Positions 1 through 5,638 of a stretch of DNA of 5,638 nucleotides are shown piece after piece; position 1 is the stretch's first letter, and each line of letters opens with the position of its first letter. The stretch lies in the IMG/VR virus record IMGVR_UViG_3300029181_000111, one strand, 5' to 3'. The notes under the pieces were generated by a model. It saw only the letters and a list, made by a program, of their open reading frames with translations, made no database searches and was not told where the DNA came from. The position numbers were made by a program, and so were the translations under genes. This DNA is from a virus. Lineage: Duplodnaviria; Heunggongvirae; Uroviricota; Caudoviricetes.

Positions 1-51
1 CTGACACCGTTGAATTATCTCGCCAAACAGCGACAAAAAGTGATGTGGTGA
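1..51 (+). CDS. Possible 3' end of an upstream AraC-family regulator gene (envY-like); 5' part lies outside the window
   Basis: Frame 1 reads LTPLNYLAKQRQKVMW then TGA at 49-51. The TP..Y spacing resembles the C-terminal G-x-TP-x-x-Y tail of AraC/XylS proteins (compare [10 protein letters not shown] at the AppY C-terminus in this window). Only 16 codons are visible, and frame 3 is also open here, so this is weak. Confidence 0.3.
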   Translation: MTPLNYLAKQRQKVMW

Positions 52-96
52 AGGGCAAAGCGGAAACGGATAAGACGGGCATAAATGAGGAAGAAA

Positions 97-141
97 TGGC
101 GCGCCCTGCAGGATTCGAACCTGCGGCCCACGACTTAGAAG
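97..141 (-). other. 3'-terminal 45 nt of tRNA-Arg(UCU) (argU) without the 5' half: prophage attachment-site core (attR-type remnant)
   Basis: Reverse complement of 97-141 is CTTCTAAGTCGTGGGCCGCAGGTTCGAATCCTGCAGGGCGCGCCA: anticodon loop with UCU, T-arm GGTTCGAATCC, acceptor 3' strand and CCA. Sequence beyond 141 (tRNA 5' side) does not continue as a D-arm or acceptor 5' strand, so this is a fragment, not a gene. Lambdoid prophage DLP12 is known to integrate into argU. Confidence 0.85.
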
Positions 142-464
142 TTCCTAGAACGACATTTTAAGTCAACAACTTACCGCGCCATCTCTGCGCTCACACGTCC
201 CACTACCTCAAAACATGTAAAGCCTTGCAAGCCATTGCGAGGCCTTATGTGTCTCAGTTTTGTCCCTCTTTTTTGTACTAAAAAACATAGTAATTGAGGA
301 TAAACCTCATGCTATTTTCGCTTATATGCCTCTAAAGGCATGGCACTTAAATAGATAAAAGCACCACAAAAGCATAAAAAAACCACACAGTAAAACCGAA
401 ATATGAAACAATAACAGATAATTAAACCAAAAACAGATAGCGCATTGTGATAATCATTCAATAC

Positions 465-481
465 TAAACAAAATATAAACA
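465..481 (-). promoter_or_regulatory. Candidate PhoP box (direct repeat TGTTTA-N5-TGTTTA read on the minus strand) upstream of ompT
   Basis: Plus strand 465-481 is TAAACAAAATATAAACA; reverse complement is TGTTTA-TATTT-TGTTTA, a perfect match to the (T/G)GTTTA-N5-(T/G)GTTTA PhoP consensus. It sits about 85-100 bp upstream of the ompT ATG. ompT is reported to be PhoPQ-regulated; function of this particular site is inferred. Confidence 0.45.
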
Positions 482-553
482 GTGGAGCAATATGTAATTG
501 ACTCATTAAGTTAGATATAAAAAATACATATTCAATCATTAAAACGATTGAAT

Positions 554-557
554 GGAG
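554..557 (+). promoter_or_regulatory. Shine-Dalgarno sequence (GGAG) for ompT
   Basis: GGAG lies 7 nt upstream of the ATG at 565. Confidence 0.7.
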
Positions 558-564
558 AACTTTT

Positions 565-624
565 ATGCGGGCGAAACTTCTGGGAATAGTCCTGACAACC
601 CCTATTGCGATCAGCTCTTTTGCT
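565..624 (+). other. ompT: OmpT signal peptide (predicted cleavage after Ala20, SFA/STE)
   Basis: N-terminal basic residues (R2, K4), a hydrophobic core, and A-x-A-like SFA before the mature N-terminus STETLSF. Confidence 0.8.
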
Positions 625-1518
625 TCTACCGAGACTTTATCGTTTACTCCTGACAACATAAATGCGGACATTAGTCTTGGAACTCTGAGCGGAAAAACAA
701 AAGAGCGTGTTTATCTAGCCGAAGAAGGAGGCCGAAAAGTCAGTCAACTCGACTGGAAATTCAATAACGCTGCAATTATTAAAGGTGCAATTAATTGGGA
801 TTTGATGCCCCAGATATCTATCGGGGCTGCTGGCTGGACAACTCTCGGCAGCCGAGGTGGCAATATGGTCGATCAGGACTGGATGGATTCCAGTAACCCC
901 GGAACCTGGACGGATGAAAGTAGACACCCTGATACACAACTCAATTATGCCAACGAATTTGATCTGAATATCAAAGGCTGGCTCCTCAACGAACCCAATT
1001 ACCGCCTGGGACTCATGGCCGGATATCAGGAAAGCCGTTATAGCTTTACAGCCAGAGGTGGTTCCTATATCTACAGTTCTGAGGAGGGATTCAGAGATGA
1101 TATCGGCTCCTTCCCGAATGGAGAAAGAGCAATCGGCTACAAACAACGTTTTAAAATGCCCTACATTGGCTTGACTGGAAGTTATCGTTATGAAGATTTT
1201 GAACTCGGTGGCACATTTAAATACAGCGGCTGGGTGGAATCATCTGATAACGATGAACACTATGACCCGGGAAAAAGAATCACTTATCGCAGTAAGGTCA
1301 AAGACCAAAATTACTATTCTGTTGCAGTCAATGCAGGTTATTACGTCACACCTAACGCAAAAGTTTATGTTGAAGGCGCATGGAATCGGGTTACGAATAA
1401 AAAAGGTAATACTTCACTTTATGATCACAATAATAACACTTCAGACTACAGCAAAAATGGAGCAGGTATAGAAAACTATAACTTCATCACTACTGCTGGT
1501 CTTAAGTACACATTTTAA
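565..1518 (+). CDS. ompT: Outer membrane protease OmpT (omptin family, protease VII), 317-aa precursor
   Basis: ORF of 317 aa with good RBS. The translation matches E. coli OmpT as I recall it, including signal peptide MRAKLLGIVLTTPIAISSFA, the catalytic Asp pair in VDQDWMD (precursor D103/D105) and the Asp/His pair in SDNDEHYD (precursor D230/H232), and a C-terminal aromatic residue (…GLKYTF) typical of beta-barrel outer membrane proteins. Confidence 0.97.
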   Translation: MRAKLLGIVLTTPIAISSFASTETLSFTPDNINADISLGTLSGKTKERVYLAEEGGRKVSQLDWKFNNAAIIKGAINWDLMPQISIGAAGWTTLGSRGGNMVDQDWMDSSNPGTWTDESRHPDTQLNYANEFDLNIKGWLLNEPNYRLGLMAGYQESRYSFTARGGSYIYSSEEGFRDDIGSFPNGERAIGYKQRFKMPYIGLTGSYRYEDFELGGTFKYSGWVESSDNDEHYDPGKRITYRSKVKDQNYYSVAVNAGYYVTPNAKVYVEGAWNRVTNKKGNTSLYDHNNNTSDYSKNGAGIENYNFITTAGLKYTF

Positions 1519-1534
1519 GAACGCCAACTAAAAT

Positions 1535-1563
1535 TTCCCCGAGGTGAAAATCGCCCCGGGGAA
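1535..1563. terminator. GC-rich hairpin in the convergent ompT/appY intergenic region; possible transcription terminator
   Basis: TTCCCCG (1535-1541) pairs with CGGGGAA (1557-1563), 7 bp with a 15-nt loop, 17 bp after the ompT stop. There is no U-tract on the plus strand; on the minus strand it is followed by AUUUUAG. Weak as a classical intrinsic terminator. Confidence 0.3.
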
Positions 1564-1767
1564 TAACTAGCCATTTCAATGTAACAATTAACCCTTAAAA
1601 TAAACCCAGAAGGTTATTAACTAAATCACATAGAAAACCATCAATTATAGTATGTATAAAATAGGCGACAGCAACCCAATTACAAATTAATGGTTCCAGA
1701 ATATCACATCAAAAAAAACGCTGTATAATATTATAATTAACATGTAGACAACTTGTAATAAACATTA

Positions 1768-2517
1768 TCAGTCAATTGTTTTGTTTATTCCATCTGTGAC
1801 GCCGATTATTTTCTCAAAATAATGAGATGGCGTGACACCATAATAATCTTTAAATGCACATATGAAATATGAAGTACTGTTATAGCCACATTTCTGGGCT
1901 ACGACATTGATAGAATAAGAGTTTGAAGTTATGAGTTTTTTTGCATACCTCATCCTAGTATCTCTCAATATTTCAGTAAATGACGTTCCTTCATCCCTTA
2001 ATCTTTTTTTTATTAAACTTTCACTCGTATAAATCAATTCCGCAATATCTTTTAAATGCCATTGCCGCTCAATATTAAAACTGATTATTCCAGTAATTTT
2101 ACAGGTAAATGTATTTATATTTGTTAGTATAAATGAATTTACACTTTCGCGTTTTTTGAACATGGCAAGTAAGGATATACATAGTCTTTCTTTTAACCAA
2201 AGGGAGTGTGAGTCTGCTATTTTAATCCCTTCAAACAGAGAAAAAACAAGCGATAATGGAGGTTCCTCTTCAGCAATATAGCCATTCTTATCAAGAGTAA
2301 ATTTGCCAGGCAGCTCATTATTCACGTCGATAAAAAAGGATAAACATGTTTTCTTATCTATATCAACAATTCTTAGTTTAGAGGGGCATACTGGTAACTC
2401 CCTTCTAATTTTGTCGCTTACAATAAACAATGAATTTTTTTTGAACGAGATAACTCTCCTGTTTATAATTAAATCAAATGATTGACAGATGAAAACTACG
2501 GAGCAAACATAATCCAT
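1768..2517 (-). CDS. appY: AraC-family transcriptional activator AppY (C-terminal HTH domain), 249 aa
   Basis: 249-aa ORF with ATG start and an AGGTG SD-like sequence upstream. The C-terminal region has AraC-type HTH signatures (…[25 protein letters not shown]…). It is convergent with ompT as in K-12 DLP12, and the sequence matches my recollection of AppY. The gene is very AT-rich. Confidence 0.9.
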
Positions 2518-3062
2518 CTTGCACCTATCATAAAATTAAAACAAGTTGATAGTAGTCAAATAACAACCAATTAAATACACAATCATAATCAGGATGATGT
2601 GCATTTATATTTTTATACACAAAATTATAGTTTGCAAATTTTAATAAATTTCATTTAAGATTAAATTATTATATGTATGTTGTTTTTTATTCTAACTTAT
2701 TTCAAAGTTACATTTTTCAACGCTTACTATGCTTTTTATTAACATAAACTCACTACAACGCACCTGAAACCTCTTGCTATATATATGTCAACCGTTTGAA
2801 TTTAAAATAAAAAGAGTATCATTTTTACTTGCATTTCTTATCAAGTCACATTCAACAACAGTAAAAAAACATTATTAGAACCATTCAATTAACAAAAAAC
2901 CAACATCCAGCTTGCTTAATTTTTCTTTATTAAACGATATTGAAAATCAATTGATAAAATACATCTAAACAACCTTTTGGGGCGCAAAAGCATAACATCA
3001 AACAAACAAATAACACACCGAAAAAACTCACAATTAATAACCTATGATATACATACTGTTTA

Positions 3063-3323
3063 TTATGGTTGAATAAGCCACTCGATATCTGGTGCTACGG
3101 AAGTGTCCACACGGTTTAGCAGCACCCGATACTTTTTTCAGGCTTCCAGCAACGATCTTTCTTCCTCCGTTGCGATTTCCAGATCTACAGCATCCTGCAG
3201 TGGCGCAATATACTCACTGAATTCCTGGATGTAGAACTGTGTGGTGACGGTCTTCCAGCCATTCGGCTCCTGCTGTATTGAAGCATACCAGGCTATTTCA
3301 ATATCGCTATGCTGCGGCAGCAT
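3063..3323 (-). pseudogene. tfaX: Tail fibre assembly protein remnant (tfaX-like); C-terminal Tfa homology interrupted by an in-frame TGA
   Basis: The 61-aa ORF 3138-3323 ends …[25 protein letters not shown], matching the intact Tfa in this window (…[29 protein letters not shown]…). At the position of Tfa Trp (TGG) this copy has TGA. Reading on in the same frame gives [20 protein letters not shown]… to a TAA at 3063-3065. The N-terminal part is diverged. Confidence 0.7.
3077..3219. repeat. Copy 1 of a 143-bp imperfect direct repeat (3' end of tfa-family genes)
   Basis: By hand alignment, 3077-3219 against 4124-4266 shows about 17 mismatches over 143 bp (about 88% identity) with no indels. 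Confidence 0.85.
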
Positions 3324-3461
3324 TTAACCCCTTGTAATTCATTGCCATAATTGATTTAATTCACAAATAAAACTATAACATGGTGAAATTAATAAAAAAA
3401 CACAGATGATGGGGCTAGAATTTACACACCACTTACCCTAAAGCTTTATGACTGGTGGGTT

Positions 3462-4046
3462 TTGGGAGTATCAAATCGGCTTGCATGGGGATGTCCTACA
3501 AAGGAACACCTTCTTCCACACTTTCTGGAACATTTAGGTAACAACCATCTGGATATTGGTGTTGGAACTGGGTTTTACCTTACTCACGTACCTGAGAGTA
3601 GTCTGATATCTTTAATGGATTTGAACGAAGCTAGCCTGAACGCGGCATCTACAAGGGCTGGGGAATCAAAAATTAAACATAAAATTAGCCATGATGTTTT
3701 TGAACCTTATCCCGCGGCGTTACATGGTCAATTTGATTCCATTTCCATGTCTTACCTTCTTCACTGCCTGCCTGGAAATATATCTACAAAAAGCTGTGTA
3801 ATACGCAATGCGGCGCAGGCCTTAACTGACGATGGAACTCTATACGGAGCCACAATTCTTGGCGATGGAGTTGTGCACAATAGCTTCGGTCAAAAACTGA
3901 TGCGCATTTACAATCAGAAAGGCATCTTTTCAAACACAAAAGATTCCGAAGAAGGCTTAACACATATACTCTCAGAGCATTTCGAGAATGTTAAAACCAA
4001 GGTTCAAGGTACTGTAGTAATGTTTTCCGCTTCAGGAAAAAAATAG
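3462..4046 (+). CDS. ybcY: Class I SAM-dependent methyltransferase (ybcY-like); start codon uncertain, possibly 5'-truncated or a pseudogene
   Basis: Motif I LDIGVGTG, an acidic residue after beta-2 (LISLMDLNE) and an FDSISMSYLLHCL motif-II-like segment. The ORF track starts at TTG 3462 with a poorly spaced SD. The same frame is open back to 3396 (…PLTLKLYDWWVLGVS…) with no in-frame ATG or GTG. ATG-ATG at 3406-3411 is one nucleotide out of frame. The position between tfa and tfaX matches ybcY of K-12 DLP12. Confidence 0.6.
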   Translation: MGVSNRLAWGCPTKEHLLPHFLEHLGNNHLDIGVGTGFYLTHVPESSLISLMDLNEASLNAASTRAGESKIKHKISHDVFEPYPAALHGQFDSISMSYLLHCLPGNISTKSCVIRNAAQALTDDGTLYGATILGDGVVHNSFGQKLMRIYNQKGIFSNTKDSEEGLTHILSEHFENVKTKVQGTVVMFSASGKK

Positions 4047-4086
4047 CATCCAACCGCAGCATGTTCTTGCTTAAGACGTGCTGCGG
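4038..4086 (-). terminator. Candidate intrinsic terminator downstream of tfa (minus-strand sense)
   Basis: Stem CCGCAGCATG (4054-4063) pairs with CGTGCTGCGG (4077-4086), 10 bp with one G-U pair and a 13-nt loop. On the minus strand it is followed by UUGGAUGCUAUUUUUUU. It lies between the convergent stops of tfa (4101) and ybcY (4046). Confidence 0.35.
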
Positions 4087-4100
4087 CATAATCCCAATGA

Positions 4101-4685
4101 TTACTCCCTGACAGGGTTCGTAGGCCACTCAATATCAGGTGCAGTTGATGTATCAACACGGTTCAGCAACACCCGATATTTTTTCCAGGCTTCCAGCAAT
4201 GAGGTTTCTTCCTCCGTTGCGATTTCCAGATCTACAGCATCCTGAAGTGGCGCAATATGCTCACTGGCTACCTGCATCAGGCTGTTTTTTGTTTCTTCCG
4301 CCTCCCGAATCCGGAACAGTTTTTCTGCTTCTGCATCTTTCACCCAGGCTGTACCGTTCCACTTCTGAAACTCCCCTTCCGGCGATAACCAGGTAACATT
4401 TTCCGGTAACGGACCGAGTTCAGAAATAAATAACGCGTCCCCTGACGCTACGTCATAAACCGTTTTACCCCGATGATCTTCAACGAGATGCCACGATGAC
4501 TCATCACTGTTGAAAACAGCCACGAAGCCAGCTGGAATATCTGGCGGTGCAATGTCGGTACTGTTTGCTGGCAGACCTGTATGAGGCGGAATATATGCAT
4601 CACCTTCACCAATAAATTCATTAGTTCCGGCCAGCAGATTATAAATTTTTATGGTCCGTGGTTGTTCACTCATTCTGAATGCCAT
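4101..4685 (-). CDS. tfaD: Tail fibre assembly protein Tfa (lambda Tfa-like), 194 aa, apparently intact
   Basis: The 194-aa ORF ([24 protein letters not shown]…[11 protein letters not shown]) closely matches lambda Tfa as recalled. Its ATG overlaps the upstream stf stop in the TAATG arrangement typical of stf-tfa. The symbol is assigned by position in DLP12 and is uncertain. Confidence 0.9.
4124..4266. repeat. Copy 2 of the 143-bp imperfect direct repeat (3' end of the intact tfa)
   Basis: See copy 1. This copy lies within the tfa coding sequence. Confidence 0.85.
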
Positions 4686-5548
4686 TATGCAAGCCTCACA
4701 ATATAGTTAAATGCGATGTTTTTGACGGTGTTTTCCGCGTTACCAGCAGCGTTAACGGTGATGGTGTGTCCATGTGAGCCAATCGCAACGGAGTGCGTAT
4801 GAGCACCAATACCGACAGTATGTGCATGTGCGCCTGCGCTTGCAGCAGTGCCGGACAGCGAGTGGGTATGAGCACCATCTGATGATGTCTTCCCTGCATT
4901 ACGAGTCTGGCCACTACCGCTTGTTGTGCTCATAATCCCCGCGCTCAGATTTGAAATCGCGGTATAACCATTAGGAAAAATGCTCGTATTCGTGCCACCA
5001 AATGCACCGGAACTCTTGTGTTGGTGCGCACCGGCACTATTTGCAGTCCCGCTAATACTATGGGTATGCGCCCCGGTGTTATTCGTGGATTTGGTTCCGT
5101 AATCAAACGACGATGTGTTTTTCGTCCCCAAATCCGTACTGGATGCGCTGGCGCTGTGGGTGTGCGATTTAATGCCGTCCTGTTCCTGAGACAATACGGC
5201 ACGACCACTGGCGGGTTTGCCCTTAATCGTCCAGCCACGCATAAGGGTGTTGCGCTGCTTATGCTCTATAAAGTAGGCATAAACACCCAGCAGCATTTTG
5301 GAATAACCGACACGGGCAGACTTCACCACATTCACCTCACGGATGTAGTCGCTGCCCATCGCATTCATGATGGCCCGCTGAAAGGGCAGTGTTTCCCAGC
5401 GCCCTTCCTGGTATGCGGATTCTTTCGGGAGATAGTAATTAGCATCCGCCCATTCAACGGCGGTCTGTGGCTCCGGCCTGAACAGTGAGCGAAGCCCGGC
5501 GCGGACAAAATGCCGCAGCCTGTTAACCTGACTGTTCGATATATTCAC
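4685..5548 (-). CDS. In-frame chimeric ORF: N-terminal ~103 aa of terminase large subunit (lambda gpA-like) fused to the C-terminal ~184 aa of a side tail fibre (Stf) receptor-binding region; deletion scar of a defective prophage
   Basis: The N-terminus [102 protein letters not shown] matches lambda gpA as recalled, with a GTG start overlapping the Nu1 stop. After …RNTL the sequence switches to Stf-like His/Gly/Ser-rich repeats ending …[31 protein letters not shown]. The junction is near nt 5240. It may correspond to the aaaD/stf remnant of K-12 DLP12, which I am not sure of. Confidence 0.85.
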
Positions 5549-5638
5549 TCAGCAACCCCGGTATCAGTTCATCCAGCGCGGCTGCTTTGTTCATGGCTTT
5601 GATGATATCCCGTTTCAGGAAATCAACATGTCGGTTTT
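5523..5638 (-). CDS. nohD: 3' end of terminase small subunit gene (lambda Nu1 homologue); 5' part lies outside the window
   Basis: The minus-strand frame reads …[37 protein letters not shown] with TAA at 5523-5525, matching the lambda Nu1 C-terminus as recalled. The stop overlaps the start of the downstream A-like ORF, as in lambda. Confidence 0.8.

What the first reader, a model, noticed from the sequence alone, without database searches (positions are those of the whole stretch)
465..481. Perfect PhoP-box-like direct repeat upstream of ompT
On the minus strand this reads TGTTTA-TATTT-TGTTTA, an exact match to the PhoP consensus hexamers with 5-nt spacing, about 85-100 bp upstream of the ompT start codon. 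A putative -35-like TTGACT lies at 498-503. OmpT cleaves cationic antimicrobial peptides, which are a PhoQ-activating signal, so direct PhoP control is biologically coherent. The site's orientation and distance relative to the true transcription start are unknown from sequence alone.
Basis: partly seen in the sequence, partly recalled or inferred. Interest (0 to 1): 0.4.

Follow-up and report, generated by a model that had tools for sequence, protein, structure and literature searches.

The report
Known PhoP box activating ompT promoter
The repeat is real and is very probably the already published binding site through which the magnesium and antimicrobial-peptide sensing regulator PhoP switches on the E. 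coli outer-membrane protease gene ompT, so the reading is correct but not new.

Summary
Observation confirmed. Window 465-481, read on the minus strand, is TGTTTA-TATTT-TGTTTA. It is the only perfect PhoP-box match in the window. Such a match arises in about 0.1% of shuffles of the AT-rich 300 nt upstream region.

The window is the E. coli K-12-type envY/ompT/appY region of cryptic prophage DLP12. ompT is at 565-1518 (+). A published genome-wide transcription start map puts the ompT start at window 534, giving a 31-nt leader. That places TTGACT (498-503) at -36..-31 and the box at -69..-53, centred on -61, in reverse orientation.

The composite TAAACA-N5-TAAACA-N16-TTGAC is exact in every E. 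coli ompT promoter class sampled, in E. albertii, and in the plasmid paralogues arlC and ompP. The spacer and the 16-nt gap have diverged between them. Degenerate versions sit at the same position in Pectobacterium and Serratia omptin genes.

A reverse-orientation PhoP box at ompT was noted by 2009. Cho et al. (bioRxiv 2020; Infect Immun 2023) showed that phoP deletion, or an AAA->GGG change in the gene-proximal half-site, abolishes low-Mg2+ induction of ompT-GFP.

I found no physical PhoP binding data for E. coli ompT in the papers I could open. Low interest.

The parts
465..481 (-). PhoP box, TGTTTA-TATTT-TGTTTA, in reverse orientation relative to ompT. It spans -69..-53 from the mapped start site and is centred at -61.
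   Evidence: Sequence. Only perfect match in the window. 4 of 3000 local shuffles reach it. Conserved in position and strand across omptin promoters. Reverse-strand PhoP site in ompT reported in PMC2681069 and in Cho et al..
476..481 (-). Gene-proximal half-site (TAAACA on the + strand). Its AAA at 477-479 is most probably the triplet changed to GGG by Cho et al.
   Evidence: [quoted passage not shown] The sequence itself is only in a figure I could not see, so the match to 477-479 is my inference. It rests on this being the only reverse-strand site shared by ompT, ompP and arlC.
465..470 (-). Gene-distal half-site (TAAACA on the + strand).
   Evidence: TAAA and A of this hexamer are invariant columns in the 12-sequence alignment.
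482..497 (+). 16-nt gap between the box and the -35. Its length is conserved but its sequence is not.
   Evidence: the gap is 16 nt in 9 of 12 promoters and 15 nt in Pectobacterium and Serratia. In C. amalonaticus the script chose a different, equally weak site (gap 22). The gap sequences are unrelated.
498..503 (+). -35 hexamer TTGACT, at -36..-31.
   Evidence: Promoter scan. TTGAC is invariant in all 12 aligned omptin promoters. Its position relative to the start site follows.
520..525 (+). Predicted -10-like hexamer AAAAAT, at -14..-9, 16 nt after the -35.
   Evidence: 9 of 12 matches to the consensus. The assignment is a prediction; the exact hexamer is uncertain by 1-2 nt.
534..534 (+). 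ompT transcription start site (A).
   Evidence: Kim et al. 2012, supplementary file 2: NC_000913.2 position 584887 (-), 3632 reads, 31-nt 5' UTR. The listed upstream 51-mer GGAGCAA...ATATTCA equals window 484-534.
534..564 (+). 31-nt 5' leader with the Shine-Dalgarno sequence GGAG at 554-557.
565..1518 (+). ompT coding sequence (317 aa omptin outer-membrane protease), the regulated gene.
   Evidence: ORF. (RefSeq annotation of the 100%-identical locus).

Best explanation
The 17-bp element is the PhoP box of the sigma-70 ompT promoter. When PhoQ senses low Mg2+, acid pH or cationic peptides it phosphorylates PhoP. A PhoP dimer then binds the two TGTTTA hexamers, which lie in reverse orientation centred at -61. 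This is 16 bp upstream of a near-consensus -35 (TTGACT) that is paired with a weak -10 (AAAAAT). From there PhoP activates transcription starting at window 534, raising OmpT levels.

Shown here or in the papers read: the sequence, the start site, the geometry, the conservation, the PhoP and low-Mg2+ dependence of ompT transcription, and the cis requirement for a reverse-strand half-site.

Inferred: that the mutated published site is exactly 476-481; that PhoP-P binds it physically; and that activation works from upstream of the -35, probably by contact with the RNA polymerase alpha C-terminal domain as in class I activation and/or by relieving H-NS silencing, rather than by replacing the -35.
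For: The match is perfect and unique, and it is rare in local shuffles (4/3000). The start site at 534 puts the box at -69..-53 and 38 nt from the -10-like hexamer. Zwir 2012 found that reverse-oriented boxes activate at 27, 37 and 48 nt but not at 23 or 28-32 nt. The natural pagK box lies at 37 nt, and the box of pgtE, the Salmonella omptin gene, lies at 49 nt.

The composite TAAACA-N5-TAAACA-N16-TTGAC is exact in all 8 distinct E. coli ompT loci fetched (K-12-like, A39, EH2252, FDAARGOS_1262, 22AR0750, UTI89 and two O157-type), in E. albertii, in arlC and in ompP. The spacers differ (TATTT, TGGTT, TAATG, ACGTT, GCTTT) and so does the gap sequence. Homology between the O157 and K-12 upstream regions begins at window 452, just distal to the box.

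Literature: PMC2681069 names ompT as carrying a PhoP site in opposite orientation. Cho et al. show loss of OmpT protein, protease activity and ompT-GFP induction in a phoP deletion, and loss of induction after the half-site mutation. [quoted passage not shown]
Against: I could not open any paper with a footprint, EMSA or ChIP result for PhoP on the E. coli ompT promoter. The Cho preprint contains no EMSA. Zwir 2005, Eguchi 2004 and the final Cho 2023 paper are not held.

The distance to my -10 assignment is 38 nt, not the tested 37, and the -10 is only predicted.

One study reports no shift of an 'OmpTp' (plasmid ompT) promoter fragment by unphosphorylated PhoP, where it was used as a negative control, although the arlC-type promoter carries a perfect box. 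That paper's methods and legend disagree about which fragment the control was.
Confidence: 0.9

Rival explanations
1. PhoP at this site works mainly by counter-silencing. It displaces or remodels H-NS on a horizontally acquired, AT-rich promoter, possibly together with SlyA, rather than recruiting RNA polymerase. This is a rival account of the mechanism, not of the site's identity.
For: The upstream 300 nt are 28% G+C and lie inside cryptic prophage DLP12. The -35 is already near consensus, so the promoter may not need recruitment. Zwir 2012 associates reverse-orientation, far-upstream boxes with horizontally acquired genes and mentions SlyA/H-NS dependence at some PhoP promoters. Cho et al. 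mention H-NS silencing and SlyA/PhoP activation of pgtE.
Against: The box-to-(-35) distance is fixed at 15-16 nt across very different sequence contexts. This suggests a stereospecific contact with RNA polymerase, which simple displacement of H-NS would not require. No H-NS data for ompT were examined here.
Confidence: 0.2
2. The site is functional but PhoP control is indirect. Another OmpR/PhoB-family regulator whose level depends on PhoP (for example RstA) binds the repeat.
For: The half-site mutation and the phoP deletion show cis and trans requirements but not physical PhoP binding. No binding assay for ompT was found.
Against: Both hexamers match the PhoP consensus (T/G)GTTTA-N5-(T/G)GTTTA perfectly. 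[quoted passage not shown] From my own knowledge, not tested here: the RstA, OmpR, CpxR and PmrA consensus sequences do not fit this sequence. The homologous Salmonella pgtE box is listed in Zwir 2012's table of PhoP boxes, which that paper says were defined by DNase I footprinting.
Confidence: 0.04
3. The repeat is a chance occurrence in AT-rich DNA with no regulatory role.
For: The region is 72% A+T, and T/A-rich hexamers are common there. Sites with three mismatches are frequent.
Against: Only 4 of 3000 local shuffles give a perfect site. The same site, on the same strand and at the same distance from TTGAC, recurs in paralogues of about 70-77% protein identity whose flanking bases have diverged. 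A published half-site mutation abolishes induction.
Confidence: 0.01

Closest known systems
The published PhoP-binding site of E. coli ompT (Harari, Zwir et al. 2009, PMC2681069; Cho et al., bioRxiv 10.1101/2020.02.28.965145, later Infect Immun 2023)
   Same: Same gene, same strand (reverse), conserved in ompT, ompP and arlC, and the gene-adjacent half-site contains AAA. This is the only site in the ompT upstream region that fits that description.
   Different: Nothing detectable. The papers' figures giving the sequence could not be read, so identity is inferred, at high confidence.
Salmonella 'architecture V' PhoP promoters (ugtL, pagK, pgtE, mgtC, pagC, pipD; Zwir et al. 2012, PMC3335776)
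   Same: The activating box is in reverse orientation and far upstream of the -10 (30-58 nt there, 38 nt in ompT; pagK has 37 nt to the -10 and 55 to the start, ompT has 38 and 53). The genes are horizontally acquired and AT-rich. pgtE is the Salmonella omptin orthologue.
   Different: Architecture V promoters carry a second PhoP box at or downstream of the -10. ompT has none with two or fewer mismatches; the only candidates are three-mismatch sites such as 518-534(-). The ompT hexamers are both perfect TGTTTA rather than the TATTTA submotif typical of reverse boxes, and ompT has a near-consensus -35.
Canonical class II PhoP promoters (mgtA, phoP, mgrB type; 'architecture I')
   Same: Same 17-bp direct-repeat recognition sequence and the same regulator.
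   Different: There the box is in direct orientation, 12 nt upstream of the -10, and replaces the -35. In ompT it is inverted and lies 16 nt upstream of an intact -35.
Class I activation as at CRP-dependent lac P1 (activator centred near -61.5). This comparison is from my own knowledge of the field.
   Same: The activator site is centred at about -61, upstream of a recognisable -35. Zwir 2012 shows alpha-CTD dependence for a PhoP box upstream of the -35 at rstA.
   Different: Alpha-CTD dependence has not been tested for ompT. PhoP binds as a head-to-tail dimer, so orientation matters.

Membership tests
PhoP box / directly PhoP-activated promoter (E. coli-Salmonella PhoP regulon) | Direct repeat (T/G)GTTTA - 5 nt - (T/G)GTTTA | tested here: met
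   TGTTTA-TATTT-TGTTTA with zero mismatches at 465-481(-). The consensus is as stated in Zwir 2012.
PhoP box / directly PhoP-activated promoter (E. coli-Salmonella PhoP regulon) | Position and orientation relative to the -10 and the start site compatible with activation | tested here: met
   Start at 534, -10-like hexamer at 520-525, reverse box 38 nt upstream. Reverse boxes are active at 27, 37 and 48 nt. Agreement is within 1 nt, and the -10 is only predicted.
PhoP box / directly PhoP-activated promoter (E. coli-Salmonella PhoP regulon) | Conservation of the site in orthologous and paralogous promoters | tested here: met
   The exact composite motif is present in 8 distinct E. coli ompT loci, E. 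albertii, arlC and ompP. Versions with 1-2 mismatches lie at the same position in five further omptin promoters.
PhoP box / directly PhoP-activated promoter (E. coli-Salmonella PhoP regulon) | Transcription depends on phoP and on PhoQ-inducing conditions | not testable with these tools
   Reported by Cho et al.: ompT-GFP, OmpT protein and protease activity are lost in a phoP deletion and induced by 10 uM Mg2+. That paper cites Eguchi 2004 for earlier data.
PhoP box / directly PhoP-activated promoter (E. coli-Salmonella PhoP regulon) | Mutation of the box abolishes PhoP-dependent expression | not testable with these tools
   Reported: an AAA->GGG half-site mutation gives complete loss of induction. 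Mapping that mutation to 477-479 is my inference.
PhoP box / directly PhoP-activated promoter (E. coli-Salmonella PhoP regulon) | Physical binding of phosphorylated PhoP (footprint, EMSA or ChIP) | not testable with these tools
   Not found for E. coli ompT in the papers I could open. The pgtE box is listed among the PhoP boxes that Zwir 2012 says were defined by DNase I footprinting. My unverified recollection is that databases cite Zwir 2005 for binding at ompT.
Architecture V of Zwir et al. 2012 | Activating box in reverse orientation, 30-58 nt upstream of the -10 | tested here: met
   Reverse orientation, 38 nt.
Architecture V of Zwir et al. 2012 | Second PhoP box overlapping the -10 or downstream of the start site | tested here: inconclusive
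   There is no second site with two or fewer mismatches in 400-700. Three-mismatch sites at 518-534(-) and 529-545(-) overlap the -10 and the start, but sites that weak are common by chance.

The most novel reading that the evidence does not exclude
The unit 'reverse PhoP box - 15/16 nt - TTGAC' may be an ancient promoter cassette that travels with omptin genes between prophages, plasmids and chromosomes. It appears to reach beyond the published set (ompT, ompP, arlC, croP, pgtE) to plant-associated Pectobacterium and Serratia. If so, omptins there are also direct PhoP (PhoPQ/PehRS) targets. icsP would have lost the gene-proximal half-site when it came under different control.
Probability: 0.4. 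Interest if true: 0.25.

Novelty: already known. Interest (0 to 1): 0.1.

Why it matters
OmpT degrades cationic antimicrobial peptides, and those peptides also activate PhoQ. Direct PhoP control therefore closes a sense-and-destroy loop that matters for gut and urinary-tract E. coli. This is established: the site, its orientation, its conservation among omptin promoters and its cis requirement are published.

The present work adds a coordinate-level anatomy:
- start site at window 534
- box at -69..-53
- a fixed 16-nt distance to an invariant TTGAC
- the same module in all sampled E. coli promoter classes and, in degenerate form, in Pectobacterium and Serratia

Tried and rejected
- **Divergent PhoP-dependent promoter on the minus strand.** The box is in direct orientation on that strand. 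It is followed after 12 nt by TATCAC (452-447), or after 10 nt by GATTAT. This is unsupported. The hexamer lacks the final T, it is not conserved in UTI89 or O157, there is no divergent gene because envY is co-directional and ends at window 51, and the Kim 2012 table lists no start between ompT and cusS.
- **Second PhoP box.** None with two or fewer mismatches.
- **ARAGORN for the tRNA-like sequence.** No gene found. Rfam gives a sub-threshold partial tRNA.
- **Papers not held.** Zwir 2005, Eguchi 2004, Cho 2023 (final version) and Thomason 2015 could not be opened. Statements about them rest on citations in other papers or on my memory.
- **Search 'ompT promoter' plus 'transcription start site'.** It returned only papers on Vibrio OmpT, an unrelated protein.
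- **Guillier & Gottesman 2008.** It gives no ompT start site.
- **Genome-collection scan with OmpT.** It found only 14 loci and missed croP and pgtE, so those promoters were not examined directly.
- **Box frequency across all 5426 E. coli genomes.** Not counted; only representatives of each identity class were fetched.

Full report
**Observation.** Window 465-481 reads TAAACAAAATATAAACA on the + strand and TGTTTA-TATTT-TGTTTA on the minus strand. It is the only perfect match to TGTTTA-N5-TGTTTA in the window, where 0.01 are expected from whole-window shuffles. The region is AT-rich, so I also shuffled only the 300 nt upstream of ompT (28% G+C). A perfect (T/G)GTTTA-N5-(T/G)GTTTA on either strand appeared in 4 of 3000 dinucleotide-preserving shuffles. 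TTGACT is at 498-503 as stated, and the consensus scan pairs it through a 16-nt spacer with AAAAAT at 520-525. The ompT ATG is at 565, so the box lies 84-100 nt upstream of it.

**Locus.** The window is the E. coli envY/ompT/appY region. Positions 1-4539 are 100% identical to K-12 MG1655 and lie inside the annotated cryptic prophage DLP12, whose end corresponds to window 142. ompT is at 565-1518 (+) and appY at 1768-2517 (-). envY is upstream of ompT, co-directional, and ends at window 51. There is therefore no divergent gene that the box could serve instead.

**Promoter anatomy.**
- The supplementary start-site table of Kim et al. 2012 (PMC3415461) lists one ompT start: NC_000913.2 position 584887 (-), 3632 reads, 31-nt leader. 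It gives the upstream 51-mer GGAGCAATATGTAATTGACTCATTAAGTTAGATATAAAAAATACATATTCA.
- That string is window 484-534, so the start is the A at 534.
- TTGACT is then at -36..-31 and AAAAAT at -14..-9.
- The PhoP box is at -69..-53, centred at -61. It lies 16 nt upstream of the -35 and 38 nt upstream of the -10-like hexamer.
- The box is in the orientation opposite to the classical mgtA/phoP type, where a direct box 12 nt from the -10 replaces the -35.
- Zwir et al. 2012 moved a PhoP box along a test promoter. A reverse-oriented box activated at 27, 37 and 48 nt from the -10 but not at 23 or 28-32 nt.
- The natural reverse boxes of pagK and of pgtE (the Salmonella omptin gene) lie at 37 and 49 nt.
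- The ompT geometry (38 nt to the -10, 53 to the start) is essentially that of pagK (37 and 55). The caveat is that the ompT -10 is predicted, not demonstrated.

**Conservation (computed here).**
- I fetched ompT upstream regions from each identity class of E. coli: K-12-like, A39, EH2252, FDAARGOS_1262, 22AR0750, UTI89 and two O157-type. I also fetched the plasmid paralogues arlC-type, ompP and icsP, an E. fergusonii plasmid omptin, and chromosomal omptins from E. albertii, Citrobacter amalonaticus, Pectobacterium, Serratia and others.
- In each 300-nt upstream region the best PhoP-box match fell on the reverse strand, centred 91-94 nt before the start codon, in ompT (all three main classes), E. 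albertii, arlC, ompP, the 80%-identity metagenome omptin (MAG80), the E. fergusonii plasmid omptin and Pectobacterium. Near-equal matches lie at -88 to -99 in Serratia, C. amalonaticus and icsP.
- The match has zero mismatches in ompT, E. albertii, arlC and ompP, although their 5-nt spacers all differ (TATTT, TGGTT, TAATG, ACGTT, GCTTT).
- In the alignment, the only invariant blocks upstream of the start codon are TAAA.A of the distal hexamer, AA of the proximal hexamer, TTGAC, and a few A's around the -10.
- The gap between box and TTGAC is 16 nt in 9 of 12 promoters and 15 nt in Pectobacterium and Serratia. Its sequence is unrelated between paralogues.
- The composite pattern TAAACA-N5-TAAACA-N16-TTGAC occurs exactly once in every E. 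coli ompT locus fetched and in E. albertii, arlC and ompP.
- Homology between the O157 and K-12 upstream regions starts at window 452, just distal to the box. This fits the published statement that EHEC/EPEC expression differences map to distal sequences.
- This is a classical phylogenetic footprint. It rules out chance and argues for a stereospecific relation between the bound protein and RNA polymerase.

**Literature.**
- Harari, Zwir et al. 2009 state that the E. coli ompT promoter harbours a putative PhoP site in the orientation opposite to mgtA, citing Zwir 2005.
- Cho et al. (bioRxiv 2020, later Infect Immun 2023) show that OmpT activity, OmpT protein and ompT-GFP are induced by low Mg2+, abolished in a phoP deletion and unaffected in a pmrA deletion. 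[quoted passage not shown] - The site's sequence is only in a figure. I infer it is 465-481, with the mutated AAA at 477-479, because no other reverse-strand site is shared by ompT, ompP and arlC.
- A 2025 paper on Yersinia pla treats PhoP binding upstream of the core promoter at ompT, ompP, croP and pgtE as established.

**Gaps and contrary points.**
- I could not open any paper with a footprint, EMSA or ChIP result for PhoP at E. coli ompT. Zwir 2005, Eguchi 2004 and the final Cho 2023 paper are not held.
- I recall that databases list binding evidence from Zwir 2005, but that is memory, not a result obtained here.
- Zhuge et al. 2018 used a plasmid 'OmpTp' promoter fragment as a negative EMSA control and saw no shift with unphosphorylated PhoP. 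The arlC-type promoter nevertheless has a perfect box and is PhoP-dependent according to Cho et al. That paper's methods describe a different control fragment, so I give this little weight.
- ompT lacks the clear second PhoP box that Salmonella architecture V promoters have. Only three-mismatch candidates overlap the -10 and the start.

**Mechanism.** The most likely sequence is as follows. PhoQ activation leads to PhoP-P. PhoP-P binds as a dimer to the two hexamers at -69..-53. It then activates a promoter that has a good -35 but a poor -10. This would occur through contact with the alpha C-terminal domain (class I-like; centre -61) and/or through relief of H-NS silencing of this AT-rich prophage DNA. 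The fixed 15-16-nt distance to the -35 favours a direct polymerase contact. Neither sub-mechanism has been tested for ompT. After transcription, the OmrA/B small RNAs pair with -15..+20 of the mRNA relative to the start codon, which is a separate layer of control.

**Verdict.** The interest lies only in the anatomical detail and in the possible extension of the PhoP-box/-35 cassette to Pectobacterium and Serratia omptins.

Noticed in passing
window 4540-5240: This 701-nt segment is absent from MG1655, although both flanks (1-4539 and 5241-5638) are 100% identical to MG1655. It covers the 3' part of the tail-fibre-assembly ORF 4101..4685(-) and the C-terminal part of the tail-fibre ORF 4685..5548(-). 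NCTC9038-type genomes match 1-5243 at 100% and then diverge. No complete E. coli genome holds 4300-5638 as one colinear piece. The window therefore carries a less-deleted form of the DLP12 aaaD/tfaD junction than the reference K-12.
   Followed up: partly
window 108-191 (-): Partial tRNA-like sequence: Rfam tRNA 24.8 bits, below the gathering score of 29, matching model positions 9-63. ARAGORN finds no gene. The annotated end of prophage DLP12 maps to window 142. This is probably the attR remnant of the arginine tRNA target; from memory it is called pauD in K-12.
   Followed up: partly
window 222-309 (+): Three terminator-like hairpins (222-243, 239-255, 295-309) lie between the tRNA remnant and the ompT promoter, where 0.3 are expected from shuffles. 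They may insulate ompT from read-through from envY.
   Followed up: no
window about 550-584 (+): Published OmrA/OmrB small-RNA pairing region on ompT mRNA, -15..+20 relative to the start codon (PMC2588501). This is an EnvZ/OmpR-dependent post-transcriptional layer on the same gene.
   Followed up: no
L007 (Shigella flexneri plasmid icsP), upstream of position 601: The icsP promoter keeps TTGAC, the 16-nt gap and the distal TAAACA, but the gene-proximal half-site is degenerate (TTAATT; three mismatches overall). This suggests a weakened or lost PhoP box.
   Followed up: no
L016 (Pectobacterium odoriferum) and L017 (Serratia sp.), about 90 nt upstream of position 701: Reverse-strand PhoP-like boxes lie 15 nt upstream of TTGACT: GGTTTAGGTTATATTTA with 1 mismatch and CGTTGAGGTATTGTTTA with 2 mismatches. 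The Pectobacterium second repeat, TATTTA, is the submotif that Zwir 2012 associates with reverse-oriented boxes.
   Followed up: partly
L004 (arlC-type plasmid omptin), box centred at -93: Zhuge et al. 2018 report no PhoP shift of a plasmid 'OmpTp' promoter fragment used as a negative control, yet this promoter has a perfect PhoP box. The paper's methods name a different control fragment.
   Followed up: no
window 3077-3219 and 4124-4266: These two segments of about 143 nt each match the other's MG1655 counterpart at about 87% identity, so they form a diverged repeat. They fall within or near the two tail-fibre-assembly genes annotated in MG1655 as tfaX and tfaD.
   Followed up: no
window 452: Homology between O157:H7-type and K-12-type ompT upstream regions begins here, 13 nt distal to the PhoP box. 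Upstream of it O157 has unrelated sequence and a different neighbouring gene, encoding a helix-turn-helix domain protein.
   Followed up: partly
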